A stretch of 64,000 nucleotides of DNA, from the NCBI GenBank assembly GCA_041560205.1, contig JBFFBV010000003.1, positions 2,211-66,210 of the forward strand. Direction: 5' to 3'. Positions 35 to 15,954 of the stretch are shown here, piece by piece. Each line of letters starts with the position of its first letter. The first letter of the stretch is position 1. The translations under genes and the position numbers were made by a program. A model generated the notes under the pieces. It searched no databases. It worked only from the letters and a program-made list of their open reading frames with translations, and was not told where the DNA came from. Source of the DNA: Candidatus Sulfomarinibacter sp. (lineage in GTDB: Bacteria > Acidobacteriota > Thermoanaerobaculia > Thermoanaerobaculales > Sulfomarinibacteraceae).

Positions 35-1483
35 TCACGGCATCGATGCCGACCAGGCCCCCGTGTCACCCGATTCGAAACCGTCGGCGAAGAGCGGGAG
101 CGAGGGGTGGACGAGCTCGAAGACATAGACCGAGCCGTGGTTCGTGAAGCCCAGGTCGTCGTCCCCGTCGGCCCCGAAGACGGCGATGGAGTTGTCGATC
201 GCCACGGAGACCCCGAAGCGGTCTTCGTTATCGGCGTCCGACGCGGTCAGCTTGGCAGCCTCACCCCAGGCATTCGGCCCGCCCTGGTCGCGCAGGAAGA
301 CGTAGGCCGAGCCGGCGGCGGACAAGCCCCCGACATCGCCGAACTCGGCGCCGACGACCACGGCATCGCGATCGATGGCGACGGAGCGTCCGAAGTCGTC
401 CTTCGACCCGGCATCCGATGCAGTGAGCTTGGCAGCCTGTCCCCAGGCATCGTCGCCATCGAGATCGCGCTCGAAGACGTAGGCCTTTTCGCCGGTGGAG
501 CCCGCGACACCCACGACCAGGGAGTCACCGCTGATCACCACCGAGGCCCCGAACTCGTCGCCCGCCTCGATGTCCGACCCGGTGATCGTCGTCAGCGGGC
601 CCCAGGTGTCCGCGCCGCCCAGGTGCCGCATGAAGATGGAGGCCGAACCCATCCCGGGCAACCCGGGGTGGAGGTCGCCGACAGCTCCGACGACCACCGT
701 GTCGCCCTCGATGGCCACGGCCGTTCCGAACTCGTCCTTCTCTGCGGCGTCCGACGCCGTGAGCTTGGCCACCTGCCCCCAGGCGTCCGCGCCGCCTGAA
801 TCCCTCATGAAAACGTAGGCCGATCCCGCGTGATAGAGCCCGTTCGCGTTCTCCCACGCGGCACCGACGACCACGGTGTCGCCGCTGATGGCCACCGACA
901 GCCCGAAGCTGTCGCCGGCTTCGGCGTCGCCCGCCGTCAGCTTGGCCACCTCCCCCCAGGCGTTCGCCCCACCCTCGTCGCGCCTGAAGATGTAGGCCGA
1001 GCCGGCCTCGGAAAGGCCGTCCGGGCTGTGGTGGCGGGCCCCGACGACGGCGGTGTCGCCGCTGATCGCCACCGCGGATCCGAAATAATCGCACGAGGCG
1101 GTGTCCGATCCGATCAGCTTGGCGACCTGTGTCCAGCCTCCGGCGTCTCGGACGAAGACGGAGGCCGAGCCGGCGTTGGTTTCCGCGCCGTGGCTGTCCC
1201 GAAAGGCCCCCGCGATCAGGGTGCCGCCGTGGACCGCGACCGACGTCCCCAGGTGGTCCAGCTCGTCCGCGTCGATGTCGGTCAATTTTACGGTCTCGAA
1301 GGCCCCCAGGACCTCGAGCGCCGCCGGAGCGCCGGCGCGGGAGTCGGGGAGTGGTCGTCCCGGCCCGTTCCGGGTCGACCCGGGAGCTTGCAAAGGACCT
1401 CCACGGCCCGGCGCCGGGTCGATCAGGGCCGCGCCCAAGATCGCGCATCCCGCGGCCACAATCCGTCGCGTCCGCCTCTTCAT
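35..1483 (-). CDS. Secreted FG-GAP (integrin-alpha-like) repeat protein
   Basis: Lies inside ORF 35..1894(-). The ATG at 1483 gives a signal-peptide-like N-terminus, MKRRTRRIVAAGCAILGAAL. About 8 tandem ~50-aa units follow, of the form FGxSVAISGDTxVVGA...AGSAYVFxRDxGGxxAWxQxAKLTASD. C-terminus is DGFESGDTGAWS. Confidence 0.8.
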   Translation of the reverse strand: MKRRTRRIVAAGCAILGAALIDPAPGRGGPLQAPGSTRNGPGRPLPDSRAGAPAALEVLGAFETVKLTDIDADELDHLGTSVAVHGGTLIAGAFRDSHGAETNAGSASVFVRDAGGWTQVAKLIGSDTASCDYFGSAVAISGDTAVVGARHHSPDGLSEAGSAYIFRRDEGGANAWGEVAKLTAGDAEAGDSFGLSVAISGDTVVVGAAWENANGLYHAGSAYVFMRDSGGADAWGQVAKLTASDAAEKDEFGTAVAIEGDTVVVGAVGDLHPGLPGMGSASIFMRHLGGADTWGPLTTITGSDIEAGDEFGASVVISGDSLVVGVAGSTGEKAYVFERDLDGDDAWGQAAKLTASDAGSKDDFGRSVAIDRDAVVVGAEFGDVGGLSAAGSAYVFLRDQGGPNAWGEAAKLTASDADNEDRFGVSVAIDNSIAVFGADGDDDLGFTNHGSVYVFELVHPSLPLFADGFESGDTGAWSASMP

Positions 1484-1950
1484 CTGCCCGGAAGACCGAC
1501 ATCCCATGCTTCCCCCGGTGCGCGGCCGATGTTTTGCAGCCATCGGCAGTGCCGTTCGCTGGCACGGCGTCTCGGCGCACGGCCGACGCACCCAGCCCGA
1601 GACCGCCGCGTCACGCGTCGCGATCGACGTCACGCCTTCGATCTCGGGCCGACACGCGCTCGCAGAGTTCAAGAAATGTGCCACCCGAGGGCGTCGACGG
1701 AAGGCAGCCACGCACCGAGTAATTCCCGCGGTCCCGACCCGATTCTCGGTGGCTGCCGTGATGAGACACGGCACACTCTGTGCCACGCGGACCTGTGCCG
1801 TGACACAGACCGGCAACCCCCAAAAGTCACCCGGCGGCACCCCGAAGCGCGACGTGCCGGCCCATTTTCGAGGTCGCAAAACTCCCCTGAACAACGCTTT
1901 AGCCGACCCGCTTCCGGGCCCGCCCCAATCCCTCCCCGCGCCCCGCCCCC

Positions 1951-1966
1951 TGGCACAGATCTTGAT
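1951..1966 (+). promoter_or_regulatory. Weak sigma-54-like -24/-12 element upstream of the Cu/heme operon
   Basis: TGGCAC-agatc-TTGAtg about 140 nt upstream of the 2108 ATG. The -12 element is TTGA rather than TTGC, so the match is imperfect. Confidence 0.2.
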
Positions 1967-2107: not shown

Positions 2108-2602
2108 ATGGTTCACGCGATGCTCTGGTTGACCGCCCTCGTGTCCCTGTTCGCGATCTTCGCGATCCCGGTCGTTATCACCAACAACGACCTCCAGGTG
2201 CCCCTCCACCCCGGCGAGAGCGACCGCTGCCCGGTGTGCGGGATGCTGGTGGCCCCCCACCCCGACTGGGCCGCCCAGGTGCGGCACGGCGACGGCACGA
2301 CCGTCTTCTTCGACGGCTGCAAGGACCTCTTCAAGTATCTCCTGATGTTCGAGATCTACGCGCCGCGGCAGGACCGCCGGGACGTGGCCGCAGTCTTCGT
2401 CACCAACTATTACGACGGCGAGCTGATCGCCGCCCGCAGCGCATTCTTCGTCGCCGGCGGCGACGTCGACGGGCCGATGGGCGCGGAGCTCGTGCCCCAC
2501 CGCAGCATCGAGGCCGCCGAGGATTTCCTCAAGGACCACCACGGGCGCCGGATCCTGCGCTTCGAAGAGATCGACGAATCGGTGATTCGCGAAATGTACT
2601 GA
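2108..2602 (+). CDS. NosL-family copper-chaperone-like protein (membrane anchored)
   Basis: Last 164 aa of ORF 830..2602. ATG at 2108 is preceded by GGAAGGAGGA. N-terminal TM segment, then the DRCPVCGM motif followed by FFDGCKDLF, typical of the NosL family. Confidence 0.72.
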   Translation: MVHAMLWLTALVSLFAIFAIPVVITNNDLQVPLHPGESDRCPVCGMLVAPHPDWAAQVRHGDGTTVFFDGCKDLFKYLLMFEIYAPRQDRRDVAAVFVTNYYDGELIAARSAFFVAGGDVDGPMGAELVPHRSIEAAEDFLKDHHGRRILRFEEIDESVIREMY

Positions 2603-2619
2603 GGAAGGAGGAACTTCCG

Positions 2620-3402
2620 ATGCTTCGGCTCGATACCTCGCACGCGCTCGCCGCCCCTCCACCGCGTCGCCAACCCGCCCGCCTTCGCCCCGTCGCCGCG
2701 AGGGTCCGCGCCGACCCCGAGCCCCGTCCGGACCTGGTCGAGGCCCACCGGGTGAGCAAGCGCTTCGCTTCGCCGGGCCGCGCCGGCGTCGCCGCGGTCG
2801 ACGACGTCACCATCCGCATCCCCGAGCGTTCGATCACGCTGATCCAGGGCCCGAGCGGCTCCGGCAAGACGACCCTGCTCGCGGTCATCGGCTGCATGCT
2901 GCGGCCGACGGCCGGCCGGGTCACCGTGGCCGGCCGCGACATCACGCGGCTGTCGGAGGATCTGCTGGCCGACGTGCGAAGGCGCCACTTCGGCTTCGTG
3001 TTCCAGAGCCGCCACCTGATCCAGCGCGCGACCGCGCTCGAAAACGTGATGGTGCCGGGCCTCCCCTGCCCCGAGTTCAACGGCGACCTCCGGCTGCGCG
3101 CGCGCTCGCTGCTGGCGCGGCTCGGCCTCGAGGCGAAGGCCCACCGGCGCGTCCAGAGCCTCTCCGGCGGCGAGCAGCAGCGGGTGGCCATCGCGCGCGC
3201 GCTGGTCAACGACCCGGAGGTGCTGATCGCCGACGAGCCGACGGCCCACCTCGACTCCAGCTCGGGCTCCACGTTCATCCACCTCGCCTTCGAGCTGCTG
3301 GCTCGCGGCAAGTCCGTCATCGTGGCCAGCCACGACCCCGCCATCTGCAGCATCGATTCCTACACCCGGGTCTTCGAGCTGCGCGACGGCCACCTGGTCT
3401 GA
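2620..3402 (+). CDS. ABC transporter ATP-binding protein (MacB/LolD/FtsE-like)
   Basis: ATG at 2620 follows GAGGAAGGAGGAA. Walker A GPSGSGKTT, signature LSGGEQQRVAIARAL, Walker B VLIADEPT, and FVFQSRHLI...ALENV typical of the FtsX-partner ATPase clade. Confidence 0.9.
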   Translation: MLRLDTSHALAAPPPRRQPARLRPVAARVRADPEPRPDLVEAHRVSKRFASPGRAGVAAVDDVTIRIPERSITLIQGPSGSGKTTLLAVIGCMLRPTAGRVTVAGRDITRLSEDLLADVRRRHFGFVFQSRHLIQRATALENVMVPGLPCPEFNGDLRLRARSLLARLGLEAKAHRRVQSLSGGEQQRVAIARALVNDPEVLIADEPTAHLDSSSGSTFIHLAFELLARGKSVIVASHDPAICSIDSYTRVFELRDGHLV

Positions 3403-3414
3403 GGGGGTGACGGC

Positions 3415-4416
3415 GTGGTCCTCAGCCTCCCCGTCCTCGCCCTCCTCGGCTGCTCGGCGGTCGTCTGCGGCCTCACCGTCATGGCCGCGGCCGTCGGTAT
3501 GTCGGTCGCGATCGGCTGGGACCACCTCGACAGCGGGCCGGAGCAGCTGCTCCGCGAACGGCGCTGGTTCCTGGTCGAGGCGAGCCTGCGCCTGATCTTC
3601 GGCCTGCAGGTGTTTTCGCTCGTGCTCTTCGTCTTCGCCACCGACCACCTCGCGCCACTCTTCACCGGGGCGATGTGCGCGGTGGGCACCCTCAAGGCCA
3701 GCCAGATCGGTTTTCCGACCCTGCTCGTCAAGGTCGGGGTCTTCGCGCTCTGCGGCCTGTGGCTGGTCGCCGACAGCGTCAGCGCCGGCGCCGCGAGCAC
3801 CGGTCTGGTCCGCTTCAAGGTCGTCTCGCTGCTGGCGCTCGCCGCCGCGCTGGCGGGCGAGAACCTGCTCCAGATCCGCTACTTCCTCGACCTCGACCCG
3901 GACATCATCACGTCCTGCTGCGCGACGCTCTTCGACCGGGGGGCCGCCGGCATCGGCGCGGGCGTCGCGAGCATTTCGCCGACTCTGAGCCGGGCCGCGT
4001 TCTTCGGCGGCCTCGTGCTCACGGCCGTGGTCGGCATGCGCGCTTTCGGCAGCCGCCGCTTCGCCCTCGCCTACTCGGTCCTGGCCGCGGCCCTCGGCGC
4101 GATCTCGACCGTGGCGATCATGACCTGGATCGCTCCGGCTTACTACGAGCTCCCCACCCATCACTGTCCGCTCTGCCTGCTGGCCGCTGAGCACGGCTTC
4201 ATCGGGTATCCGCTCTACCTCTCGCTGGCGGCAGCCGTCATCACGGGCGTCGGCAGCGGGCTAGTTTCCGCTTTGCGGGCGATCGACCCTCTCCGCTGCA
4301 TCCGGCCGCAGGAGGAGCGAAAGCTCTGCACCGTGTCCCTCGCCTGCTTCGCGCTGGTCACCGGCATCGCGCTGTGGCCGATGGTGACCTCGCCCTTTCG
4401 AATGGAGGTCCTGTAA
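3415..4416 (+). CDS. Polytopic membrane protein of unknown function with CC and HHCPLC motifs
   Basis: GTG at 3415, 7 nt after GAGGGGG and 12 nt after the upstream stop. About 8 hydrophobic segments. Cys motifs: ITSCCATLF and ELPTHHCPLCLL. I do not recognise the family. Confidence 0.6.
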   Translation: MVLSLPVLALLGCSAVVCGLTVMAAAVGMSVAIGWDHLDSGPEQLLRERRWFLVEASLRLIFGLQVFSLVLFVFATDHLAPLFTGAMCAVGTLKASQIGFPTLLVKVGVFALCGLWLVADSVSAGAASTGLVRFKVVSLLALAAALAGENLLQIRYFLDLDPDIITSCCATLFDRGAAGIGAGVASISPTLSRAAFFGGLVLTAVVGMRAFGSRRFALAYSVLAAALGAISTVAIMTWIAPAYYELPTHHCPLCLLAAEHGFIGYPLYLSLAAAVITGVGSGLVSALRAIDPLRCIRPQEERKLCTVSLACFALVTGIALWPMVTSPFRMEVL

Positions 4417-4495
4417 GCGATGCTCACCGGCGGGGCCACCAACCCCGCCACAACGTCAACACCCTTCGCTGTGAAGGGCGCACCAGGGGGTGGTC

Positions 4496-5938
4496 ATGAA
4501 GCAATCGTCTCGATGCATACGCCTGGCGTTGCTCGGCGGTGTGATTCTGATCTTCGGAGTCGCCGAGTCCTTCGCCATACCGACCTTCGCGCGCCGCTAC
4601 GCCACGAGCTGCGCGACCTGCCACGAGGCCTACCCGCGCCTCAACGCCGTCGGCGACTCGTTCCGGATGATGGGCTTCCGCTTTCCGGACGACGAGCGCT
4701 ACCGCAAGGTGCAGCCGGTCGAGCTCGGCGACGAGGCCTACAAGCGGCTGTGGCCGAAGGCGCTGTGGCCGAGCCACGTCCCCGGGAGATCGCCCCTGGC
4801 GCTGGTCACGCGCTTCATGTTCGAGGTCGACCTCAACGGCAGCCGCCAGGCGGCGACCACCTTCCTGCTGCCGGAGGAGATCGAGCTCGTGTGGGCCGGC
4901 AACCTCGGCGAGAACATCGCCTTCTACGGTGACGTGATCTATCTGCAGAAGGACTTCGGCGGTAAGGACCCGGAATCCTGGGCCACCCTCAAGGCGTGGC
5001 TGCAGCTGCAGAGCCTGTTCGGGCGAGACCATCTCTTCAACCTGCGCATCGGCACCGTCGGTACCCAGACGATGGGGCTCTTCAACGCCCGCGACGCCAA
5101 CATCTACAGCACCCACTTCTACATCTACACCTCGTGGTTCATGCCGCGGCCCAACCTCGCCCAGGCCGGGTTGTCGGAGTTTGAGGGCAACAACTTCTCG
5201 ATCACACCGCAGCAGGGCTTCGAGCTCAACGGCCTCGGCAAGAGGTGGTTCTACGCTCTCGGCATCGTCAACGGCAACCTCCTGGTGCCCGCAGGGTCCC
5301 CTCCCCCGAGCGACATCAGCTTCGTCGGCTCGGGGCGGAACACCGACCACAAGGACCTCTACGCCAATGTCGTCTACAAGATCGGCGGCACCCAGTTCGA
5401 CCGCAGCAGCGAACAGCTGCCCGCCACGCTCGGCGCTTCCGGCTCGCAACACTGGCGCGACAACAGCCTCCGGCTCGCCCTCTTCGGCTACTCCGGCACG
5501 GCCGAGATCACGACCGTCGACCTCGAGGGCGGGACGTCGGTCGGGGAGGACGACTTCTGGCGGCTCGGCGTGGGGCTCCAGCACTATATCGGCGATTTCC
5601 AGTGGTCCGCGCAGTACACCGCCGGCAGCAACGACGATCCGTACGGCAGCCTCAGCGGGCAGGCGGTCGACTCGCGGACCTGGCACGTCGAAGCTCTCGG
5701 ATTCGCCTATCCGTGGCTGATGCTCTATGGGCGCTGGGAGGGGCTCGACCTGGACCTTCCGTCGGACGTCCCCGGCCTGGTGCCCGTCCAGGACATCGAA
5801 AAGATCGTCGCCGGGGCCAAGTTCATGATCCGGCCGAACGTGTTCTGCAACGTCGAAGGCACCTACTACACCGAAGGGGCCGAACTGGAGGCGGGCCTTG
5901 ACCAGACGCTCTTCATGCTGCTCGGCATCTCGTTCTGA
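4496..5938 (+). CDS. Outer-membrane beta-barrel protein with N-terminal CXXCH; Cyc2-like fused monoheme cytochrome-porin candidate
   Basis: ATG at 4496 follows CAGGGGG. Signal peptide MKQSSRCIRLALLGGVILIFGVAESFA. The mature N-terminus IPTFARRYATSCATCHEAYPRLNAVGDSFR carries a single CXXCH. The rest shows alternating amphipathic strands with aromatic girdles and ends in a terminal Phe (LLGISF). Confidence 0.6.
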   Translation: MKQSSRCIRLALLGGVILIFGVAESFAIPTFARRYATSCATCHEAYPRLNAVGDSFRMMGFRFPDDERYRKVQPVELGDEAYKRLWPKALWPSHVPGRSPLALVTRFMFEVDLNGSRQAATTFLLPEEIELVWAGNLGENIAFYGDVIYLQKDFGGKDPESWATLKAWLQLQSLFGRDHLFNLRIGTVGTQTMGLFNARDANIYSTHFYIYTSWFMPRPNLAQAGLSEFEGNNFSITPQQGFELNGLGKRWFYALGIVNGNLLVPAGSPPPSDISFVGSGRNTDHKDLYANVVYKIGGTQFDRSSEQLPATLGASGSQHWRDNSLRLALFGYSGTAEITTVDLEGGTSVGEDDFWRLGVGLQHYIGDFQWSAQYTAGSNDDPYGSLSGQAVDSRTWHVEALGFAYPWLMLYGRWEGLDLDLPSDVPGLVPVQDIEKIVAGAKFMIRPNVFCNVEGTYYTEGAELEAGLDQTLFMLLGISF

Positions 5939-6620
5939 GGCGCTCCGTTGCCTCGCCTCGGCCGTCCTGGCGGCGGCGGTGGTCCTCGGAGCGGCCCCGA
6001 TCGAGGGCTCCTGCCCGGGCTGCGGCTCCGTGTCCGGCACGGTCGCCGTCGAGCAGGCCTACATCCGCAGCGACGGCCCCAAGCACGACCGCGACGTCGT
6101 CGTCATGCTGTCGCCGACCGGAGCCGAGGCCCCGCCGGAGCCCGCGGCGCACGCGTCGATGGACCAGAGGGGTCTGATCTTCGTGCCGCACGTGCTGGCC
6201 GTGCCGAAGGGCGCGACCGTCACCTTCCTCAACAGCGACCGGGAGCAGCACAACGTCTACTTCCTCGACGACCGCACCGGCGACACCCTCGACATCGGCA
6301 CCTGGGGACCCGGGGTCAGCGTCGACCACAGCTTCGACACGCCCGGGATGGTCATCACCCTGTGCAAGCTCCACCTCGAGATGGCGGCCTACGTGGTGGT
6401 GTGTCCGAGCCCGTGGTTCGTGCAGGTCGCATTCGAGGACAACGACACGCCGCTTCGCTTCGAGATCGCCGACGTCCCGGCCGGCGAGTACGAGCTGACG
6501 GTGTGGCACAAGAAGCTCAAGCAGAAGGGAGGATCGTTGACGATCGACGTGCAACCCGAGAAGTCCACCGAGGTGGACCTTGTCATCACGAAGGCAAAGT
6601 ACGCCAGGGCAGCTCGCTGA
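5898..6620 (+). CDS. Type-1 copper cupredoxin (plastocyanin/'methylamine utilization'-like) with C-terminal Ig/CarboxypepD_reg-like domain
   Basis: TTG at 5898, 6 nt after GGAGG (5887-5891), overlapping the upstream gene by 41 nt. Signal-like LASAVLAAAVVLGAAP. T1Cu ligand pattern: HNV ... C-K-L-H-L-E-M. C-terminal FEIADVPAGEYELTVWHKK. Confidence 0.72.
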   Translation: MTRRSSCCSASRSEALRCLASAVLAAAVVLGAAPIEGSCPGCGSVSGTVAVEQAYIRSDGPKHDRDVVVMLSPTGAEAPPEPAAHASMDQRGLIFVPHVLAVPKGATVTFLNSDREQHNVYFLDDRTGDTLDIGTWGPGVSVDHSFDTPGMVITLCKLHLEMAAYVVVCPSPWFVQVAFEDNDTPLRFEIADVPAGEYELTVWHKKLKQKGGSLTIDVQPEKSTEVDLVITKAKYARAAR

Positions 6621-8604
6621 GGGCGGGCTCGCGGGATTCGGAGGCTGGGACCTGCGGTCGGCGGCTCGTCCGAGCGTGATCTGGCGCTGGTGGCCGGCCG
6701 CCGTCGTCGCGATGGCCTGTGTGGCCTTCTTCCAGGCGACACGGCCCGAGGTGGTCGTGGCGGCGTCGCCCCGAGAGGTCGAGATCATGGCGCGACAGTA
6801 CGCCTACGAGCCGCACCGCATAGTCGTCGACCCCGGCGACGAGGTCCACCTCCGGCTCGCCTCGACCGACGTCGTGCACGGCTTCTACCTCGAGGGGCAC
6901 GACATCGAGGCGGAGATCCGGCCGGGCTCGCTCACCGCCTGGGCCCGGCGCCCCTCCACCGGCGAGGATTTCCGCGAGCTCGAGGAGATCGTGTTCACCG
7001 CCGGCAGGCCCGGCAAGTACCGCTATCGCTGCTCGGTGACCTGCGGGACCCTCCACCCCTTCATGCAGGGCGAGATGATCGTGCGCCCGAACCTGCTCTA
7101 CCGGGCGTCGCTGATCGCGGCCTGCGGCCTGACCCTGGGCATCTTCGGTCTGATGATGACCGGCGCGTTGGGCAACGGCGTCTCCCGGGCTACGGGAAGT
7201 CCACCGTGCCGCCGGATCGACCTGCTGCGAGTGCTTCCCGGGCTGAGGTGGCTGGTGACGCGACGCTGGTTCCAGTTCGCCGTCGTCCTTCCCAACCTGC
7301 TGGTGCTCTTCTTCTTCGTCGTCGCCGGCTTCTTCGGCTCGCCGATCGGCAACCGCAACATCATCGTGACGATCGTCTGGATCCTGTGGTGGTTTCTCCT
7401 CATCACCGTCCTCGTTCCGGCCGGCGGCAGGGTGTGGTGCATGGCCTGCCCGGTCCCCTTCGCCGGCGAGTGGCTGGCGAGGCGCCGCCTGATCGGCGTC
7501 CGGCGCGAGGCCGAGAGATCGCGGTCCCTCCGCACCGGCGGCCTGAACCGCCGCTGGCCCCACCGTCTGTCGCGAATGTGGCTGCAGAACCTGCTCTTCC
7601 TCACCGTGTGCACCGTGTCGACCATCCTGGTCACCCGGCCCGCGCTGACAGCGGCGGTTCTCATGACGATGGTGGTGGCGGCCGTGGCGATGCACGCGCT
7701 CTACAAGAGACGGAGCTTCTGCAGGTACCTCTGTCCGCTCAACGCGTGGCTCAGCGTGTACTCGATGGCCTCGGCGACGGAAATCCGGCCCCGCGACACC
7801 GGTCTGTGTGCCGACTGCAGAGACCACTCCTGTGCCGGCGGGTCGGCCGAGGCCTGGGGCTGCCCGTGGATGGTCAACCCCTCCAAGCTCGACCGCAACA
7901 ACTACTGCGGCCTCTGCATGGAGTGCATCAAGGCCTGCCCCAACGACAACATGAGCCTTCACGCGCGCCCCGTATTCGCCGACGTGTCGATCCGCCGCCT
8001 CGACGAGGCCTTCATGGCCCTGATCATGATCGCTCTCGTGATCGCCTACACCGTCACGCTCCTCGGACCATGGGGCACGCCCCGCGAGTGGTCCAACGTC
8101 ACCGAGGTCGGCAACTGGGGAGGCTTCGCCCTCCACGCGTCGGTCGTGTGGCTGTGCGCCCTGGGGCTCGTCCCCGCGATCTGGTACGGCCTCTCGTGGC
8201 TGGCGCACCGGGTCGCGGGCACGAGCACCGTGTCCGTCCGCGAGATCTTCGTCCGCTCCACCTACCTCCTGGTGCCGGTCGGTCTGCTCGCGTGGATCGC
8301 CTTCAGCCTGCCCCTCATCATGCTCAACTGGACCCACATCGCCTCCTCGCTGTCGGACCCCCTGGGGTGGGGCTGGGACCTCTTCGGAACCGCCCGCCAG
8401 CACTGGAGCCCCCTCTACCCCGAGTGGATCCCCTCGCTCCAGGCCCCGCTGCTGCTGCTCGGTCTCGCAGTGGCCCTGGTGCGCGGTCACCGGGTGGCCC
8501 AGGGCCTCTTCGCCGATCCTTCGGCCGCCATCCGCAGCCTGATTCCGCACGGTCTGGCCTGCGCCGCCATCACCGCCGTCATGCTGCGGCTTTTCGTGGG
8601 ATGA
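6580..8604 (+). CDS. CuA-type (COX2-like) cupredoxin domain fused to NapH/NosH/MauN-like membrane polyferredoxin
   Basis: N-terminal TM WRWWPAAVVAMACVAFF. Cupredoxin with DVVHGFYL ... C-SVT-C-GTL-H-PF-M, which is the CuA ligand spacing. Then multiple TM segments with CMACP and CRYLCP (CX2-3CP) motifs, and two ferredoxin motifs (CADCRDHSC...CPW; CGLCMECIKACP). Start uncertain: TTG 6580 (SD GAGG; 41-nt overlap with the upstream gene), CTG 6652 (after GGAGG) or GTG 6676. Confidence 0.8.
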   Translation: MSSRRQSTPGQLAEGGLAGFGGWDLRSAARPSVIWRWWPAAVVAMACVAFFQATRPEVVVAASPREVEIMARQYAYEPHRIVVDPGDEVHLRLASTDVVHGFYLEGHDIEAEIRPGSLTAWARRPSTGEDFRELEEIVFTAGRPGKYRYRCSVTCGTLHPFMQGEMIVRPNLLYRASLIAACGLTLGIFGLMMTGALGNGVSRATGSPPCRRIDLLRVLPGLRWLVTRRWFQFAVVLPNLLVLFFFVVAGFFGSPIGNRNIIVTIVWILWWFLLITVLVPAGGRVWCMACPVPFAGEWLARRRLIGVRREAERSRSLRTGGLNRRWPHRLSRMWLQNLLFLTVCTVSTILVTRPALTAAVLMTMVVAAVAMHALYKRRSFCRYLCPLNAWLSVYSMASATEIRPRDTGLCADCRDHSCAGGSAEAWGCPWMVNPSKLDRNNYCGLCMECIKACPNDNMSLHARPVFADVSIRRLDEAFMALIMIALVIAYTVTLLGPWGTPREWSNVTEVGNWGGFALHASVVWLCALGLVPAIWYGLSWLAHRVAGTSTVSVREIFVRSTYLLVPVGLLAWIAFSLPLIMLNWTHIASSLSDPLGWGWDLFGTARQHWSPLYPEWIPSLQAPLLLLGLAVALVRGHRVAQGLFADPSAAIRSLIPHGLACAAITAVMLRLFVG

Positions 8605-8611
8605 GGAGGTC

Positions 8612-9559
8612 ATGAACAGCGAACGACTCGCCGCCGCGCTCGTGATCCTGCCGATGGTGGCCATCGTCACGGCCATCGCGTGGTTCGGCTGGCTCTCCGA
8701 GCGGGTTCTCGGCGCGCAAGAGACCGTCGTCTTCGATCTCACGGGGGTGGCCTCGGCCGGCGTCTGGACCCTCGGTCCCGTCAACGGCCTGAACTACTGG
8801 TGGCGTGACTTCCAGCCCGCGACCCTGCAGGTCACCGAGGGCGACGAGGTGGTCATCCACCTGAGGAGCGCCGACGTCTTCCACCGCTTCTACCTGCCGG
8901 CCTTCGAGGTCGGACCGGTGGCGATCGAGCCTGGCCACACCGTGACGGTCCGCTTCACGGCCGACCGTGCGGGCATCTATCAGTACTACTGCACATCGAT
9001 GTGCGGTGGCTGCCACTTCTACATGCGCGGGTGGATCGTCGTCAGCAGGGAGGGCGAAGATCCGGTCCAACCCCCGCCGATCATGTGCACCCTGTGCCGC
9101 CCGGATGACCTGCCACGCCCCACCAGCGAGAGCCTCGTCGACCGGGGCGCCTACCTCTACCTCGAAAAGGGCTGCGTGACCTGCCACGGCCCCGAGGGCC
9201 AGGGCGGAATCGTCAACCACAACTCGGCCAACAGCCCGGTGCCCGCGCACAACACGACCGCCGAAAAGCTCTTCCTCCGATCGCCGGAGGATGCCGAGGC
9301 CTTCATCCGACTGCTGGACGAGCACGACGACCTCGAAGCTCTCGAGGAGCCGCCGGAGATCGGCCTCTTTCCGGTCGTGCGCACCCGCTACGAGAACGCG
9401 AGGGAGATCGTCCGCAAGGGGCGGTACTCTTCGAAGCTCGACCCGGCCGGTCCGGAACCGCCGCTGCAGATGCCGGCATGGCAGCACATCGTGCGGGACC
9501 GGGAGATCGACGCGCTGTTGGTCTACTTCGTATCGCTCTATCCCTGGGAGGAGGGCTGA
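8612..9559 (+). CDS. CuA-type cupredoxin domain fused to class-I cytochrome c
   Basis: ATG 7 nt after the upstream stop. N-terminal TM. ADVFHRFYLP - x - C-TSM-C-GGC-H-FY-M has the spacing H-x35-C-x3-C-G-x2-H-x2-M seen in COX2 CuA sites. C-terminal half has CVTCH and a distal LQMPAW. Confidence 0.8.
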   Translation: MNSERLAAALVILPMVAIVTAIAWFGWLSERVLGAQETVVFDLTGVASAGVWTLGPVNGLNYWWRDFQPATLQVTEGDEVVIHLRSADVFHRFYLPAFEVGPVAIEPGHTVTVRFTADRAGIYQYYCTSMCGGCHFYMRGWIVVSREGEDPVQPPPIMCTLCRPDDLPRPTSESLVDRGAYLYLEKGCVTCHGPEGQGGIVNHNSANSPVPAHNTTAEKLFLRSPEDAEAFIRLLDEHDDLEALEEPPEIGLFPVVRTRYENAREIVRKGRYSSKLDPAGPEPPLQMPAWQHIVRDREIDALLVYFVSLYPWEEG

Positions 9560-9876
9560 TGACGAGAGGCTACAGGATCGTGATCGCCCTGGTGCTTCTC
9601 GAGGCTGTGACCGTGGCCGCCCTCAGCGTCGCCGGAAGCGCCGCGAGCCGCGTGGACGATCAGGCTCGGCAGTCCAACCGCCGCCTGGTCCGCGAGATGC
9701 TGCTCACCGACCTTGCCCTCAGCACCGGCACCAGCTATTGCCGCCACCCGTCGCAGACCGACCTCTTCGCGCCTTACGGCGACCACCCCTCGGCTATCGA
9801 GCACTTCCCGGCGGGATCCATCATGGCACCTCCGGCCGTCTCGACTCCCTCCACCGCAACCGGACCCGGACCATGA
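9559..9876 (+). CDS. Small single-TM protein, unknown function
   Basis: Its ATG overlaps the upstream TGA (cTGATGa). Its stop overlaps the next ATG (ATGA at 9873-9876). N-terminal TM IVIALVLLEAVTVAALSVAG. No recognisable family. Confidence 0.5.
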   Translation: MTRGYRIVIALVLLEAVTVAALSVAGSAASRVDDQARQSNRRLVREMLLTDLALSTGTSYCRHPSQTDLFAPYGDHPSAIEHFPAGSIMAPPAVSTPSTATGPGP

Positions 9877-11039
9877 GACGCCATCTTCGAATCCTCGACT
9901 TCGCCATCGCGAACCTGCGCCGCAGACCGGCGAAGTTTCTGGTCGTCGTTCTCGTCTACTCGATCCTGGTCGCAGCTCTCGCCTCGCTCATGATGTTCGT
10001 CGACGCCGTCCGGCGTGAGGCTCGCTCGCTCCTCGACGGGTCCCCCGAGATCATCGTGCAGAGCCTTCGCGGAGGCCGGCACGAGCTGATCCCGGTCGAG
10101 CGCGCCGATGCGATCCGGGCGATCCGCGGCGTCGGCAGCGTCACACCGCGGGTGTGGGGCTACTCCTACGACCCGCCGACCGGCGCGACCCTCACCTTCT
10201 GGGGCGCCGAATCCGTGCCCGACGAGTCCCTGGCTTTCGAGGATCAGGAGCTGTCGAGCGGTGAGCTCGTCGGCGGGTGCGTCATCGGGTCCGGGCTCGC
10301 CGACCTCCGCTTCCTGGGGGTCGGTGACCGCCTCCCTGTGAAGGGGTACGACGGGTCGCTGTTCGCGCCGAAGGTGGTCGGCATATTCGAAAGCTCTTCG
10401 TCAATTCTCACCAATGATCTCGTCGTCTGGCCGACCGACGACCTCCGCCGCGTCTTCGCTATCGACCCCGCCCTCGCAACCGATCTCGCCGTCGAGATCC
10501 ACAACCGCAACGAGATCGACACGGTCGCGGCGAAGATCCTCGACAGGTGGCCGGACGCGCGCGTCATCACCCGGGATCAGATCTTCGCCACCTACGACGC
10601 GGCCTTCGACTGGCGTGGAGGGCTGTGGGCCGCCTTCATGGCATGTTGCGTGGCCGCCTTCGCGATCCTGGTCTGGGACAAGGGAACGGGGCTCTCCGCC
10701 GAAGAGTACCGGACCATCGGTCTGCTCAGGGCCACCGGCTGGAAATCGCGGGAGGTCATGGAGCTCAGGGTTTTTGAAGGCGGGCTGGTCTCGCTCGTTG
10801 CATTCCTCACGGGGCTCATCATCGCCCAGATCCACCTGATCTGCTTCGACGGCTTCGTCTTCGCCCGTGTCATCAAGGGATGGTCGGTGCTCTTTCCCTC
10901 CTTCGAGATCGTGCCCGTTCTCGACCTCCCGACGCTCCTGATCTGCGGATCGCTGTCCCTCGTGCCCTACATCGCGGCCAACCTGGTGCCGTCCTGGAAG
11001 GCCTCCGTCACCGATCCAGACTCCGTGCTCCGAAGCTGA
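9873..11039 (+). CDS. ABC transporter permease, FtsX/MacB family
   Basis: Last 388 aa of ORF 9291..11039. N-terminus MRRHLRILDFAIANLRRRPAKF, a periplasmic MacB-like domain, and a C-terminal FtsX 3-TM bundle (RTIGLLRATGWKSREV). Confidence 0.85.
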   Translation: MRRHLRILDFAIANLRRRPAKFLVVVLVYSILVAALASLMMFVDAVRREARSLLDGSPEIIVQSLRGGRHELIPVERADAIRAIRGVGSVTPRVWGYSYDPPTGATLTFWGAESVPDESLAFEDQELSSGELVGGCVIGSGLADLRFLGVGDRLPVKGYDGSLFAPKVVGIFESSSSILTNDLVVWPTDDLRRVFAIDPALATDLAVEIHNRNEIDTVAAKILDRWPDARVITRDQIFATYDAAFDWRGGLWAAFMACCVAAFAILVWDKGTGLSAEEYRTIGLLRATGWKSREVMELRVFEGGLVSLVAFLTGLIIAQIHLICFDGFVFARVIKGWSVLFPSFEIVPVLDLPTLLICGSLSLVPYIAANLVPSWKASVTDPDSVLRS

Positions 11040-11051
11040 AGAGATCGATCG

Positions 11052-11486
11052 ATGCGCGCAGCTTCAATCCTCGCGACCGCAATTTTGATCATGGTTGCCT
11101 GCTCGCCCACCGCGCCGATGCACCAGCTGGTGGCGTCCGACGGCGACGCCGTTCGGATCTCCCTCCAGGAGGTGTCGGACGGCTCGGTCCACTTCTTCAC
11201 CTTCATCCACCGGGGGACGCGAGTGAACTTCCTCGTCCGGACGGACGGAGACGGCGCCCAGCACGCCCACCTGGACGCCTGCTATGCGTGCTATCGCTAC
11301 AAACAGGGATTCGTGGTCGAGGACGAAGCGTTGGTGTGTATCGCCTGCCGGCTCGAATACCGGCTCGAGGACGAGATCTGGGACTACATCGGCGCCTGCG
11401 CCCCGATCGAGATTCACGCGTCGTTGGAAGGCGGTGCGCTGGTCATCGACGAGGCGGTCCTCGAGCGCGCCGCCCGCTACTTCTGA
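11052..11486 (+). CDS. Cys-rich lipoprotein, DUF2318 (FtrD/FetA-like Fe-S/metal-binding) candidate
   Basis: Lipobox ILIMVAC. VHFFTF...NFLVRTDGDG...LDACYACYRYKQGF...LVCIACRL has two CxxC pairs in the arrangement I associate with DUF2318 proteins found next to FtsX/ABC genes. Confidence 0.6.
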   Translation: MRAASILATAILIMVACSPTAPMHQLVASDGDAVRISLQEVSDGSVHFFTFIHRGTRVNFLVRTDGDGAQHAHLDACYACYRYKQGFVVEDEALVCIACRLEYRLEDEIWDYIGACAPIEIHASLEGGALVIDEAVLERAARYF

Positions 11487-15719: not shown

Positions 15720-15954
15720 CGAGCTGCTCCCGGATCATGGCGACGAGCTCACCGACGGTCGTGACGACGGTCTCGTCGTCGAGGCACACCCGAAAGTGAT
15801 TCTCGACCTCGAGGGCCAGCGTCAGGCTTTTGAGCGAGTCGAGCTCGAGGTCCTCCACCAGCCGCAGCTCGGGGCGCAGCTCTCCATCCCAGCCGAGATG
15901 GGCACGCGCGACCTCGGCGACGGCGTCCAGGATCCACTGCTCGGAGACGCTCAT
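15712..15954 (-). CDS. Acyl carrier protein
   Basis: 80 aa from the ATG at 15954. Phosphopantetheine site LELDSLKSLTL. 8-nt overlap with the FAAL start and 4-nt overlap with the upstream methyltransferase. Confidence 0.85.
   Translation of the reverse strand: MSVSEQWILDAVAEVARAHLGWDGELRPELRLVEDLELDSLKSLTLALEVENHFRVCLDDETVVTTVGELVAMIREQLDD

What the first reader, a model, noticed from the sequence alone, without database searches (positions are those of the whole stretch)
4496..5938. Fused monoheme cytochrome-porin (Cyc2-like) candidate
Seen in sequence:
- A cleavable signal peptide (…GVAESFA|IPTF).
- A single CXXCH 11 residues into the mature protein (FARRYATSCATCHEAYPRLNAVGDSF).
- About 440 residues of alternating amphipathic strands ending in …LLGISF, a typical OMP C-terminal Phe.

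Established knowledge: this architecture defines Cyc2 iron oxidases of acidophilic and neutrophilic Fe(II) oxidisers.

Inference: the host may be able to exchange electrons with extracellular Fe or other substrates. The high G+C and the surrounding cupredoxin context differ from the classical Cyc2-Cyc1-oxidase arrangement.
Basis: partly seen in the sequence, partly recalled or inferred. Interest (0 to 1): 0.7.

Follow-up and report, generated by a model that had tools for sequence, protein, structure and literature searches.

The report
Cyc2-type cytochrome-porin in a copper-protein operon
The gene encodes an outer-membrane pore fused to a single-haem cytochrome, a distant relative of bacterial iron-oxidising Cyc2 proteins, and it always sits in a previously undescribed ten-gene operon of copper redox proteins, which suggests a new way of moving electrons across the cell envelope.

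Summary
Window 4496-5938 (+) encodes a 480-aa protein with a signal peptide, one invariant CXXCH 11 residues into the mature chain, a predicted 16-strand barrel and a C-terminal Phe.

Interpretation:
- It belongs to the Cyc2 superfamily. The published Cyc2 haem-domain motif is matched in 8 of 9 positions (Arg in place of Gln/Lys), and the PXL motif is present.
- Profile comparisons link it over its full length, through intermediate relatives, to Burkholderiales Cyc2-type proteins.
- It is not a classical Cyc2. It defines a tightly conserved subfamily (45-84% identity) in uncultured bacteria of at least seven phyla and in the sulfate-reducer genus isolate Desulfoluna limicola.

The subfamily travels with the same ten genes:
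- NosL
- a MacB/LolD-type ABC ATPase and an FtsX-type permease
- an orphan 8-helix Cys/His membrane protein
- a type-1 cupredoxin
- a CuA domain fused to a NapH-like polyferredoxin
- a CuA-cytochrome c
- a small membrane protein
- a DUF2318 lipoprotein

The best reading is that this protein is the outer-membrane end of a copper-based electron relay to the inner membrane. Substrate and direction are unproven, so Fe(II) oxidation is a hypothesis. I rate it a new variant of a known kind, of moderate interest.

The parts
1951..1966 (+). Imperfect sigma-54-type -24/-12 element (TGGCACAGATCTTGAT) in the intergenic region about 140 nt upstream of nosL; a possible operon promoter
   Evidence: one mismatch; the GC of the -12 box is GA. 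Such matches occur at chance frequency across the window. However, perfect TGGCAC-N5-TTGC elements lie upstream of the first cluster gene in 5 of 18 related loci, with a one-mismatch element in a sixth. This is weak evidence for the window itself.
2108..2602 (+). NosL-family protein (164 aa), a putative Cu(I) chaperone, with an N-terminal hydrophobic anchor and a conserved CPVCGM motif
   Evidence: Pfam NosL, E 1.7e-28. Conserved residues are shown. It is present in the cluster in related loci.
2620..3402 (+). ABC transporter ATPase of the MacB/LolD/FtsE type (start codon uncertain)
   Evidence: Pfam ABC_tran. Best NCBIfam matches are MacB and LolD (E 1e-53 to 4e-56, below the equivalog cut-offs). 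Conserved in the cluster.
3415..4416 (+). Orphan 333-aa inner-membrane protein with 8 long helices and invariant M-C-A, T-S-C-C and H-H-C-P-x-C motifs; a putative metal- or thiol-handling accessory protein
   Evidence: No Pfam, NCBIfam or PDB sequence match. Only 139 homologues were found, almost all about 320-355 aa and named, where named at all, 'hypothetical protein'. Invariant residues are listed. AF2 pLDDT 88.7. No Foldseek PDB match; best E about 1.
4496..5938 (+). The finding: a Cyc2-superfamily fused monohaem cytochrome c and 16-strand outer-membrane porin (480 aa)
5898..6620 (+). Periplasmic type-1 (blue) cupredoxin with a C-terminal carboxypeptidase-regulatory/fn3-like beta-sandwich; Cu ligands H(NV)...C-K-L-H-L-E-M; the proposed direct redox partner of the porin-cytochrome (start codon uncertain; overlaps the end of the previous gene)
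   Evidence: Pfam Copper-bind, fn3_3 and CarboxypepD_reg. A homologue carrying C-x2-H-x2-M lies immediately downstream of the Cyc2-like gene in 73 of the 75 related loci that have one, including relatives at only about 30% identity.
6676..8604 (+). Inner-membrane polyferredoxin of the NapH/MauN/NosR type. It has CxxCP and Cx3CP motifs, two 4Fe-4S motifs and about 10 TM helices, and is fused to an N-terminal periplasmic CuA-type cupredoxin domain (VVHGF...CSVTCGTLHPFM)
   Evidence: Pfam Fer4_5, COX2 and Cupredoxin_1. NCBIfam NapH/MauN, E 2e-10, plus CoxB and NosZ C-terminal matches. Closest PDB sequences are the T. thermophilus ba3 subunit II CuA domains, E 1.5e-14. Motifs, conservation.
8612..9559 (+). 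Membrane-anchored CuA cupredoxin domain (DVFHRF...CTSMCGGCHFYM) fused to a class-I cytochrome c domain (CVTCH...PPLQMP). It resembles caa3 oxidase subunit II, but no subunit I accompanies it
   Evidence: Pfam COX2, Cytochrom_C and Cytochrome_CBB3. NCBIfam NosZ C-terminal, E 8e-17, and CoxB, E 1e-15. PDB ba3 CuA, E 4e-13. The ligands are at least 90% conserved.
9559..9876 (+). Small single-pass membrane protein (105 aa) with a conserved LTDL...Y-RHP...HFPAG segment; function unknown
   Evidence: A gene of 98-113 aa occupies the same position in L001, L002 and L004. No family match.
9873..11039 (+). FtsX/MacB/LolCE-type ABC permease (388 aa) with a periplasmic MacB_PCD domain; presumed partner of the ATPase at 2620-3402
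   Evidence: Pfam MacB_PCD and FtsX. NCBIfam LolCE, E 3e-8. Conserved in the cluster.
11052..11486 (+). DUF2318/'FtrD-like' lipoprotein (144 aa; lipobox ...MVAC) with two conserved CxxC pairs, a fifth Cys and His residues; a periplasmic metal or redox site
   Evidence: Pfam PF10080, E 2.7e-18. Conservation. The same domain occurs in FetA of the Campylobacter FetMP-FetABCDEF iron-uptake cluster.

Best explanation
**What it is (well supported).** An outer-membrane protein of the Cyc2 superfamily. After signal-peptide cleavage, a roughly 75-residue N-terminal segment carries one covalently bound c-type haem (C39/C42/H43). It is followed by a 16-strand porin barrel. The protein belongs to a distinct, strongly conserved subfamily and is co-transcribed with nine other genes.

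**How it most likely works (inferred).** It is the outer-membrane terminus of a copper-based electron relay across the envelope.
1. A small soluble redox species exchanges an electron with the haem at or inside the pore. Fe2+ is the only substrate with biochemical precedent in this superfamily.
2. The electron passes to the periplasmic type-1 cupredoxin encoded immediately downstream.
3. It then moves to the membrane-anchored CuA-cytochrome c.
4. From there it reaches the CuA domain of the NapH-like polyferredoxin.
5. That protein's Fe-S clusters connect to the quinone pool or the cytoplasmic face of the inner membrane.

**Accessory genes.** NosL, the MacB/LolD-type ABC transporter, the DUF2318 lipoprotein, the 8-helix Cys/His protein and the small membrane protein most likely supply copper to, or mature, the five copper atoms of the relay.

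**Direction.** I favour inward flow, meaning oxidation of an extracellular reductant. In every enzyme where CuA is characterised it is the electron entry site (my knowledge), and all tested Cyc2 proteins are Fe(II) oxidases.

**My estimates.** Superfamily identity about 0.9; electron relay about 0.65; inward direction about 0.55 given a relay.
For: **Identity**
- Invariant CXXCH and the Cyc2 motif.
- Barrel model and 16-strand porin matches.
- Full-length profile links to Cyc2-type proteins.
- 1418 representatives at E up to 1e-3.

**Relay**
- All ten genes are on one strand with gaps of at most 80 nt or overlaps, between a divergent gene and a convergent gene.
- Thirteen non-redundant loci with long enough contigs and a Cyc2-like protein at 39-80% identity carry all ten genes, and a fourteenth (L017) lacks only NosL. 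The accessory block is moved to the other side in L004, L020 and L023. This argues for functional coupling rather than inherited gene order.
- A four-gene core (porin-cytochrome, T1 cupredoxin, CuA-polyferredoxin, CuA-cytochrome c) stands alone in L010 and L026-L029.
- A T1 cupredoxin with intact C-x2-H-x2-M follows the porin-cytochrome gene in 73 of the 75 loci that have a homologue, down to about 30% identity.
- CuA and haem ligands are conserved. CuA domains match ba3 subunit II and NosZ.
- In the distant relatives, the same outer pair is joined to Rieske, cytochrome b, multihaem cytochromes c and a GltD-like FAD/Fe-S protein. The pair therefore recurs next to respiratory electron-transfer proteins.

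**Precedent**
- Cyc2 then rusticyanin/cupredoxin then CuA of CoxB in the Acidithiobacillus rus operon.
- Three Cyc2 proteins have been shown to oxidise Fe(II).
Against: - There is no experimental data for any member of this subfamily.
- The haem domain is modelled at pLDDT below 50, so where the haem sits relative to the pore is unknown.
- No conserved Met or second His is evident in the haem domain across 120 representatives, so haem ligation is undefined.
- Inward transfer from CuA to Fe-S clusters or quinone would be thermodynamically uphill and against the membrane potential (my reasoning; I recall CuA at about +250 mV). No energy-coupling subunit is evident.
- The operon occurs in sulfate-reducing lineages, where neither Fe(II) oxidation nor copper enzymes are expected.
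- The accessory genes resemble those of iron-uptake clusters, which suits a transport role equally well.
- The direct profile match to canonical Cyc2-type proteins covers only the first 64 columns.
Confidence: 0.5

Rival explanations
1. Outward extracellular electron transfer. Quinol or cytoplasmic reductant is oxidised by the NapH-like polyferredoxin. Electrons flow Fe-S to CuA to CuA/haem c to T1 Cu to the porin haem, and reduce a high-potential soluble extracellular acceptor such as chelated Fe(III), Mn(III), Cu(II) or oxidised humics.
For: - NapH-family proteins are quinol dehydrogenases that send electrons to the periplasm (NCBIfam names; mechanism from my knowledge).
- Flow from low-potential Fe-S clusters to high-potential Cu centres is downhill.
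- Hosts include anaerobes and relatives of metal reducers: Desulfobacterales, Thermoanaerobaculia and Holophagae, with Geothrix terrae carrying a distant homologue.
- Cyc2 homologues are already noted in Fe(III)-reducing taxa.
Against: - No Cyc2-family protein has been shown to act as a reductase.
- CuA is an electron-accepting entry site in all characterised enzymes.
- The acceptor would need a potential above that of the Cu centres, which excludes most mineral Fe(III).
- A single haem in a narrow pore cannot reach solids (argument of Keffer et al.).
Confidence: 0.2
2. A metal acquisition or homeostasis system rather than an energy-conserving pathway. The porin admits Fe2+ or Cu+. The haem and Cu centres change the metal's oxidation state in the envelope, with electrons disposed of through the polyferredoxin, as proposed for FtrABCD. 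The MacB-type ABC transporter, DUF2318 protein, 8-helix protein and NosL handle the metal.
For: - DUF2318, FtsX-type permeases and an ABC ATPase are the FetA/FetBC/FetD components required for FetMP-dependent iron acquisition in Campylobacter.
- FtrABCD oxidises Fe(II) with the cupredoxin FtrB before transport. I recall FtrD being described as a polyferredoxin, but could not check it here.
- NosL is a copper chaperone family.
- Five of the ten genes are accessory or transport-like.
Against: - No FTR1/FetM permease or P19/FtrA homologue is in the cluster, nor among the roughly 40 window ORFs scanned.
- The four redox genes occur without the transport-like genes in L010 and L026-L029.
- Three separate copper redox proteins plus a cytochrome c is excessive for oxidising a metal before uptake.
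- Distant relatives pair the same porin-cytochrome and cupredoxin with Rieske/cytochrome b complexes.
Confidence: 0.17
3. A classical Cyc2 iron oxidase. It oxidises Fe2+ at the outer membrane and feeds a terminal oxidase through periplasmic carriers for aerobic or microaerobic lithotrophy. The window also encodes a cbb3 oxidase.
For: - The Cyc2 motif and architecture.
- A cbb3 oxidase (CcoNO fusion), CcoG and a Cu-ATPase lie 25-40 kb downstream.
- Cupredoxins act downstream of Cyc2 in Acidithiobacillus.
Against: - The oxidase genes are not part of the conserved cluster in any related locus.
- The cluster is present in sulfate-reducing lineages.
- The conserved partner is a polyferredoxin, not an oxidase.
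- No cyc1-type dihaem cytochrome is adjacent.
- The protein is only distantly related to canonical Cyc2-type sequences.
Confidence: 0.1
4. An ordinary diffusion porin whose CXXCH is incidental or non-functional.
For: - The barrel resembles general porins.
- There is no Pfam cytochrome hit.
Against: - The CXXCH and about 30 surrounding residues are the most conserved part of the protein, invariant in 45 of 45 homologues and conserved across 120 superfamily representatives.
- The gene is invariably linked to redox proteins.
Confidence: 0.02

Closest known systems
Cyc2 fused cytochrome-porins (Mariprofundus Cyc2PV-1, Acidithiobacillus ferrooxidans Cyc2, Leptospirillum Cyt572; Keffer et al. 2021, PMC8406198)
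   Same: - Signal peptide, then one N-terminal CXXCH preceded by A-x-P-x-F-A-R-x-Y and followed by P-x-L.
- A 16-strand porin of at least 365 aa ending in Phe.
- Full-length profile homology through intermediates to Burkholderiales/Rhodanobacteraceae Cyc2-type proteins.
   Different: - R replaces Q/K in the motif.
- A conserved insert of about 35 residues (DDE..K..PV.LG.EA.K..WP.A.WP..IPG) follows the haem domain. It is absent from the FARQT-type proteins.
- The barrel cannot be aligned directly with canonical sequences.
- The subfamily is unusually conserved (45-84% identity across phyla), whereas Cyc2 clusters share only 17-30%.
- The gene context is entirely different, and the hosts are not known iron oxidisers.
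The rus operon of Acidithiobacillus (cyc2-cyc1-cup-coxBACD-rus)
   Same: An outer-membrane Cyc2 encoded together with cupredoxins and a CuA-bearing protein (CoxB). This gives the logic haem, then blue copper, then CuA.
   Different: - Here there is no CoxA/C/D and no Cyc1.
- CuA is fused to a NapH-like polyferredoxin and, separately, to a cytochrome c.
- NosL, an ABC transporter and a DUF2318 protein are added.
- The hosts are neutrophilic and mostly anaerobic or sediment lineages.
FtrABCD and FetMP-FetABCDEF oxidase-dependent iron uptake systems
   Same: - Cupredoxin plus membrane Fe-S protein logic (FtrB with FtrD).
- A DUF2318 domain, FtsX-type permease and ABC ATPase, as in FetA/FetBC/FetD.
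   Different: - No P19/FtrA and no FTR1-type permease.
- DUF2318 is a stand-alone lipoprotein here rather than part of an 8-TM FetA.
- No thioredoxins.
- An outer-membrane cytochrome-porin and two CuA domains are added.
NapH/NosR/CcoG-type membrane polyferredoxins with the NosL copper chaperone (N2O reductase maturation and electron supply)
   Same: - Fer4_5-type membrane polyferredoxin with CX3CP motifs and a periplasmic redox domain at the N-terminus, as in NosR.
- NosL is encoded alongside.
- The CuA domains are related to the NosZ C-terminus.
   Different: - The periplasmic domain is CuA, not FMN-binding.
- There is no NosZ catalytic propeller and no NosD.
- The ABC transporter is of the MacB/LolD type, not NosFY.
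Porin-multihaem cytochrome conduits (MtrCAB, MtoAB/PioAB)
   Same: A trans-outer-membrane electron conduit built on a beta-barrel.
   Different: It has one haem fused to a 16-strand barrel, instead of a decahaem threaded through a 26-strand barrel. Its periplasmic carriers are copper proteins rather than multihaem cytochromes.

Membership tests
Cyc2 family (criteria of Keffer et al. 2021 / FeGenie) | N-terminal signal peptide directing export | tested here: met
   Basic n-region, hydrophobic residues 10-28, then AESFA|IPTF. The pattern is conserved in homologues. No dedicated predictor was available.
Cyc2 family (criteria of Keffer et al. 2021 / FeGenie) | A single CXXCH haem-binding motif near the N-terminus | tested here: met
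   C39ATCH43 is the only CXXCH. It is invariant in 45 of 45 homologues and present in all full-length representatives.
Cyc2 family (criteria of Keffer et al. 2021 / FeGenie) | AXPXFAR[Q/K][T/Y] motif just upstream of the CXXCH (said to be unique to Cyc2; PXFAR[Q/K][T/Y] was used as a screening filter) | tested here: inconclusive
   The window has A27-I-P-T-F-A-R-R-Y35, matching 8 of 9 positions, with R where Q/K is specified. The literal filter would therefore reject it. Subfamily members show FARRY, FARKY or FSRKY, and relatives at about 30% identity show the exact FARKY. The spacing to the Cys (3 residues) is the same as in the Ralstonia and Caballeronia FARQT proteins.
Cyc2 family (criteria of Keffer et al. 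2021 / FeGenie) | PXL motif four residues after the CXXCH | tested here: met
   H43-E-A-Y-P47-R-L49. P47 is at least 90% conserved.
Cyc2 family (criteria of Keffer et al. 2021 / FeGenie) | Length of at least 365 aa with a C-terminal 16-strand porin barrel | tested here: met
   480 aa. AF2 barrel over residues about 100-480, pLDDT mostly 84-96. Foldseek best matches are 16-strand porins, E about 1e-10. The strand count is read from the DSSP string, not from coordinates.
Cyc2 family (criteria of Keffer et al. 2021 / FeGenie) | Detectable sequence similarity to validated Cyc2 (BLASTP up to 1e-5 to a cluster representative, or a FeGenie HMM above its cut-off) and placement in cluster 1, 2 or 3 | tested here: inconclusive
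   Sequences of Cyc2PV-1, A. ferrooxidans Cyc2 and Cyt572, and the FeGenie HMMs, were not available. The proxy was Burkholderiales/Rhodanobacteraceae Cyc2-type proteins, the group that the similarity-network paper links to A. ferrooxidans Cyc2. The direct profile match covers the first 64 columns only (signal peptide and haem domain; probability 97.6%, E 3.5e-12). The full-length link is only transitive. tblastn of the target against plasmids, including Ralstonia megaplasmids, found nothing. The cluster assignment is unknown.
Cyc2 family (criteria of Keffer et al. 2021 / FeGenie) | Covalently bound haem and Fe(II) oxidation activity at a suitable potential | not testable with these tools
   Needs expression, haem staining, spectroscopy and kinetics.
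FtrABCD / FetMP-FetABCDEF iron uptake | FTR1-family permease (FtrC/FetM) and P19-type periplasmic protein (FtrA/FetP) | tested here: not met
   No such Pfam domains occur in any of the ten cluster genes or in the other window ORFs scanned. They are also absent from the clusters in L001-L004.
FtrABCD / FetMP-FetABCDEF iron uptake | Accessory set: DUF2318 protein, FtsX-type permease(s), ABC ATPase, cupredoxin, membrane Fe-S protein | tested here: met
   PF10080, MacB_PCD/FtsX, ABC_tran, Copper-bind and Fer4_5. The comparison with FetA-D is taken from PMC10783030.
Nitrous-oxide reductase (nos) system | NosZ catalytic beta-propeller with the CuZ site; NosD with NosFY | tested here: not met
   Only the CuA (C-terminal) part of the NosZ models is matched, at 28-61 bits against cut-offs of 625. 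There is no NosD. The ABC transporter is of the MacB/LolD type.
Haem-copper oxidase (caa3-type) subunit II | CuA domain (with or without cytochrome c) encoded with, and docking on, a subunit I (COX1) | tested here: not met
   The CuA and cytochrome c domains are present. No COX1 gene occurs in the cluster here or in the related loci. The only COX1 in the window is the cbb3 CcoNO at 36498-38789, and cbb3 oxidases do not use CuA (my knowledge).

The most novel reading that the evidence does not exclude
The ten-gene module is a previously unrecognised type of trans-envelope electron conduit. A monohaem porin-cytochrome is wired through three copper centres (T1 Cu, CuA-haem c, CuA) to a NapH-like polyferredoxin, with no haem-copper oxidase or multihaem cytochrome involved. 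This would let bacteria from at least seven phyla, including sulfate-reducing lineages, exchange electrons between the quinone pool or cytoplasm and soluble extracellular redox species. It would also mean CuA has a physiological role outside oxidases and N2O/NO reductases. The porin-cytochrome plus T1-cupredoxin pair would be an ancient, portable 'outer module' that plugs into different inner-membrane complexes: NapH-like here, Rieske/cytochrome b elsewhere.
Probability: 0.35. Interest if true: 0.8.

Novelty: new variant of a known kind. Interest (0 to 1): 0.55.

Why it matters
- **Annotation practice.** Cyc2 homologues are routinely scored in metagenomes as markers of iron oxidation, although only three have been tested and their function outside known iron oxidisers is openly uncertain.
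- **What this subfamily shows.** One well-delimited group of such homologues has its own invariant partners, copper proteins and a membrane polyferredoxin, and occurs in lineages not known to oxidise iron. Blanket 'iron oxidase' annotation of these genes would be unsafe.
- **A testable handle.** The complete operon is present in a cultured, fully sequenced isolate, Desulfoluna limicola ASN36. The function of a non-canonical Cyc2 and of a CuA-polyferredoxin fusion could therefore be tested directly.
- **A general clue.** The near-universal pairing of these porin-cytochromes with a type-1 cupredoxin points to their periplasmic electron partner. That partner has been an open point for neutrophilic Cyc2 systems.

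Tried and rejected
**Searches that found nothing**
- Pfam, NCBIfam and PDB sequence searches of the target gave no meaningful hit. No curated family covers Cyc2-type proteins in these libraries.
- I looked for printed Cyc2 sequences in the Keffer et al. supplements and by motif-string search of the literature. None was held.
- tblastn of the target against plasmids gave no match. Querying with a distant relative recovered the Ralstonia and Caballeronia Cyc2-type genes used as comparators.
- Literature searches for the gene combination (Cyc2 + cupredoxin + NosL; DUF2318 + FtsX + cupredoxin + polyferredoxin; Cyc2 + CuA) found no description of this cluster. The cupredoxin clusters reported for Sideroxydans and Tenderia are different.
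- The orphan 8-helix protein gave a confident model but no structural match, so it adds no functional clue.

**Comparison that fell short**
- The direct profile comparison of the target subfamily with canonical Cyc2-type proteins aligns only the first 64 columns (signal peptide and haem domain), not the barrel. An intermediate profile was needed.

**Readings considered and rejected**
- An N2O-reductase-like system: only CuA and NosL are shared.
- A hidden haem-copper oxidase: no COX1 gene in the cluster.
- Recent horizontal acquisition: the GC content of the cluster (0.66-0.71) equals that of the flanks.
- The antisense ORF 4424-6040: a shadow frame.

**Promoter and terminator scans**
- Sigma-70 promoter and terminator scans of the operon were uninformative.
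- The sigma-54 element in the window is imperfect.

**Could not verify**
- I could not confirm from a held paper that FtrD is a polyferredoxin. That statement rests on memory.


Full report
**1. The observation**

Window 4496-5938 (+) is an uninterrupted 480-codon ORF. The complementary strand is also open here (4424-6040). The + frame has the coding signature of this 65.6% GC genome (GC3 0.92, GC2 0.44), and only its product has homologues, so the antisense frame is a shadow ORF.

The product has these features:
- A typical Sec signal: K2/R6/R9, hydrophobic residues 10-28, then AESFA|IPTF.
- One CXXCH (C39-H43), 11 residues into the mature chain.
- A C-terminal ...LLGISF.

In an alignment of 45 homologues at 45-84% identity, C39, C42 and H43 and 18 further residues between P29 and P100 are invariant. 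The terminal Phe is at least 90% conserved.

AlphaFold2 (pLDDT 79.8, pTM 0.79) gives a confident barrel over residues about 100-480. I count 16 long strands, with a long conserved loop at 189-238 between strands 5 and 6. Residues 21-100 are poorly modelled, as expected without haem. Foldseek's best PDB matches are 16-strand general porins (PorB, OmpU, OmpC, OmpF; E about 1e-10). The only correction is that the barrel is about 380 residues, not 440.

**2. Relationship to Cyc2**

No Pfam, NCBIfam or PDB sequence family covers the protein. It is nevertheless far from an orphan:
- 178 close homologues were found, the full-length ones about 460-530 aa and all unannotated or 'hypothetical'.
- An exhaustive search of 1.84 billion cluster representatives found 1418 relatives at E up to 1e-3, and 123 at E up to 1e-30.
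- Nearly all full-length representatives share the N-terminal signature A-I-P-x-F-A-R-K-Y-x-T-S-C-x-T-C-H-x-x-x-P-[KR]-L-N-x-F-G-E-A-F-R-x-N-G-Y.

Keffer et al. (PMC8406198) define the Cyc2 family by exactly this: AXPXFAR[Q/K][T/Y] before the CXXCH, which they call 'unique to Cyc2', and PXL four residues after it. They add a length of at least 365 aa and a 16-strand porin. The window protein reads AIPTFARRY-ATS-CATCH-EAY-PRL. Every element is present except that R replaces Q/K.

I could not obtain the three biochemically tested sequences. Instead I recovered canonical FARQT-type Cyc2 homologues from a Ralstonia megaplasmid and a Caballeronia plasmid. In Caballeronia the gene sits between a HiPIP gene and a c-type cytochrome gene. 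I built a 24-sequence profile of that Burkholderiales/Rhodanobacteraceae group. A similarity-network study links this group to A. ferrooxidans Cyc2.

| Comparison | Probability | E-value | Extent |
|---|---|---|---|
| Target subfamily vs canonical group | 97.6% | 3.5e-12 | First 64 columns only (signal peptide and haem domain) |
| Target subfamily vs 40 diverse FARKY-type relatives | 100% | 1.5e-106 | 430 columns, full length |
| FARKY-type relatives vs canonical group | 99.3% | 8.6e-21 | 370 columns, full length |

Whole-protein homology to Cyc2-type proteins is therefore supported transitively. The FARKY clade, including the target, carries a conserved insert of about 35 residues after the haem domain that the canonical group lacks.

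**3. The surroundings are the main result**

The gene is the fourth of ten co-directional, tightly packed genes at 2108-11486. They are bounded by a divergent FG-GAP gene and a convergent glgC. In order:

| Position | Product | Key evidence |
|---|---|---|
| 2108-2602 | NosL | Pfam, E 1.7e-28 |
| 2620-3402 | MacB/LolD-type ABC ATPase | |
| 3415-4416 | Orphan 8-helix membrane protein with invariant MCA, TSCC and HHCPxC motifs | |
| 4496-5938 | The porin-cytochrome | section 1 |
| 5898-6620 | Type-1 cupredoxin (H...C-K-L-H-L-E-M) with a beta-sandwich domain | |
| 6676-8604 | NapH/MauN-family polyferredoxin with an N-terminal periplasmic CuA domain (CSVTCGTLHPFM) | |
| 8612-9559 | Membrane-anchored CuA domain (CTSMCGGCHFYM) fused to cytochrome c (CVTCH) | |
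| 9559-9876 | Small single-pass membrane protein | |
| 9873-11039 | FtsX/MacB-type permease | |
| 11052-11486 | DUF2318 ('FtrD-like') lipoprotein with two CxxC pairs | |

I compared these ten proteins with 83 fetched loci, 78 of which came from one genome per GTDB species:
- Thirteen non-redundant loci with enough flanking DNA and a porin-cytochrome at 39-80% identity contain all ten genes, and a fourteenth (L017) lacks only a NosL hit.
- In three of them (L004, L020, L023) the accessory block has moved from upstream to downstream, yet all genes stay together.
- Going by the record titles, the hosts span Acidobacteriota (Thermoanaerobaculia, Holophagae), Methylomirabilota, Thermodesulfobacteriota, Verrucomicrobiota, Planctomycetota, a Chondromyces-labelled MAG (Myxococcota; my assignment), Betaproteobacteria and a Hydrogenedentota MAG that carries only part of the cluster.
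- Almost all are MAGs. One cultured isolate with a complete genome stands out: Desulfoluna limicola ASN36.
- A four-gene redox core (porin-cytochrome, T1 cupredoxin, CuA-polyferredoxin, CuA-cytochrome c) occurs alone in five loci.
- Metal ligands are conserved throughout.
- The window organism is probably a Planctomycetota MAG.
- The cluster's GC content matches its flanks.

**4. A wider pattern**

A cupredoxin homologue with an intact C-x2-H-x2-M motif lies immediately downstream of the porin-cytochrome gene in 73 of the 75 loci that have one. This includes relatives at only about 30% identity in Acidobacteriota, Ignavibacteriota, Bacteroidota, a Nitrospinae-labelled MAG and Geothrix terrae.

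In those distant loci the inner-membrane partners differ (loci counted out of 53):
- a GltD-like FAD/Fe-S oxidoreductase (26 loci)
- a Rieske protein (17)
- cytochrome b (28)
- a multihaem cytochrome c of about 660 aa (25)
- a monohaem cytochrome c (14)
- sigma-54 activators upstream (16)

The porin-cytochrome plus blue-copper pair thus behaves as a conserved outer module attached to alternative respiratory-type inner modules. This favours an electron-transfer function over pure transport.

**5. Mechanism**

*Shown.* The architecture, the conserved cofactor ligands, the operon structure and the co-inheritance.

*Inferred.*
- The haem in the pore exchanges electrons with a small soluble species. 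A single haem in a narrow 16-strand pore cannot reach solids (argument of Keffer et al.).
- Electrons then hop T1 Cu, then CuA/haem c, then CuA, then the Fe-S clusters of the polyferredoxin.
- NosL, the ABC transporter, the DUF2318 protein, the 8-helix protein and the small protein provision copper.

*Direction.* This is unresolved.
- For inward flow (oxidation of Fe(II) or another reductant): all three tested Cyc2 proteins are Fe(II) oxidases; the rus-operon logic applies; and CuA is an entry site in known enzymes (my knowledge).
- Against inward flow: the path from CuA to Fe-S clusters or quinone is energetically uphill.
- For outward flow: it is downhill, and it suits the anaerobic hosts.
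- Against outward flow: it has no precedent in this family.

*Third reading.* The system could serve metal acquisition or homeostasis. This rests on the FetABCD-like accessory genes and the FtrB/FtrD analogy (the nature of FtrD is from memory). Against it, no FTR1 or P19 homologue is present, and the redox core occurs alone in some loci.

The window also encodes a cbb3 oxidase, CcoG and a Cu-ATPase 25-40 kb away. These are not part of the conserved module.

**6. Comparison with what is known, and novelty**

Cyc2 homologues are already known to be widespread, including in taxa not known to oxidise iron. A 'Cyc2-like protein' as such is therefore not new. Three things appear to be undescribed, since no paper in the held library mentions the combination:
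- the delimited, highly conserved subfamily;
- its fixed ten-gene operon, with a CuA-polyferredoxin fusion, a CuA-cytochrome c lacking an oxidase, and Fet/Nos-like accessory genes;
- the general pairing of FARKY-type porin-cytochromes with a type-1 cupredoxin.

I classify it as a new variant of a known kind.

**7. Verdict**

- The 'Cyc2-like' label is supported at superfamily level.
- The 'iron oxidase' reading is unproven and, for the classical aerobic pathway, unlikely.
- Interest is moderate (0.55). It is not surprising to a specialist that another Cyc2 homologue exists. The conserved copper-relay operon, and the availability of a cultured host, make the open question of non-canonical Cyc2 function directly testable.

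Noticed in passing
window 12854-17569 (- strand): Four adjacent genes: a type III polyketide synthase (16505-17569), an ICMT-family methyltransferase (15951-16508), an AMP-binding enzyme (13965-15719) and a FAD-binding hydroxylase-like protein (12854-14032). The set resembles srsABC-type phenolic-lipid/alkylresorcinol clusters; that analogy is from memory.
   Followed up: no
window 32867-48235: A respiratory and copper-handling neighbourhood: CtaA and CtaB (32867-35379), a DUF3179 protein, a cbb3 oxidase with fused CcoN-CcoO (36498-38789), the cupric-reductase-type polyferredoxin CcoG (39674-41077) and a P-type Cu-ATPase with an HMA domain (45803-48235). It shows that the host can respire oxygen, but it is not part of the conserved Cyc2-like module.
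   Followed up: partly
window 1951-1966; L001:7401, L017:7702, L032:7444, L026:9872, L028:9870, L010:9725: Perfect sigma-54 -24/-12 consensus elements (TGGCAC-N5-TTGC) lie upstream of the first cluster gene in 5 of 18 related loci, with a one-mismatch element in a sixth (L010). By my estimate a perfect match has a chance probability of about 7e-4 per 750-nt region. The window has only an imperfect copy. Sigma-54 activators flank the cluster in L001 and many distant loci. A CHASE2 kinase and a sigma-54 response regulator lie at window 17345-21247.
   Followed up: partly
window 3415-4416: A 333-aa membrane protein family with only 139 detectable members. It has invariant M-C-A, T-S-C-C and H-H-C-P-x-C motifs, a confident 8-helix AlphaFold model (pLDDT 88.7) and no structural match in the PDB (best E about 1). 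It looks like an orphan fold seen so far only in this operon, though the contexts of the more distant members were not checked.
   Followed up: yes
L035-L083 (for example L078:11969-13846, L069:13862-14347, L005:4909-5751, L050:14723-16711): Distant Cyc2-like plus cupredoxin pairs are followed by a GltD-like FAD/Fe-S oxidoreductase, a Rieske protein, cytochrome b and multihaem cytochromes c. This recalls the anammox-type Rieske/cytochrome b complexes that carry an NAD(P) oxidoreductase subunit; that analogy is from memory. It is a second, apparently undescribed gene context for Cyc2 homologues.
   Followed up: partly
window 4574-4795 (residues 27-100 of the target): Across 120 superfamily representatives, no Met or second His is conserved in the haem domain. 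The distal haem ligand is therefore not evident from sequence. Candidates include conserved Lys or Tyr residues, or a residue from the barrel.
   Followed up: no
L085 (Caballeronia sp. SBC1 plasmid pSBC1_3, 45955-48972): A canonical FARQT-type Cyc2 homologue, annotated only as 'cytochrome C', sits between a HiPIP gene and a c-type cytochrome gene on a 734-kb plasmid of a soil Burkholderiaceae. This is a classical iron-oxidation-like trio in an organism not known as an iron oxidiser.
   Followed up: no
window 35-1894 (- strand): A 619-aa protein made of seven FG-GAP repeats (Pfam E 1e-103), transcribed divergently from the operon. No homologue turned up among the neighbours of the cluster in the related loci whose gene lists were inspected.
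   Followed up: no
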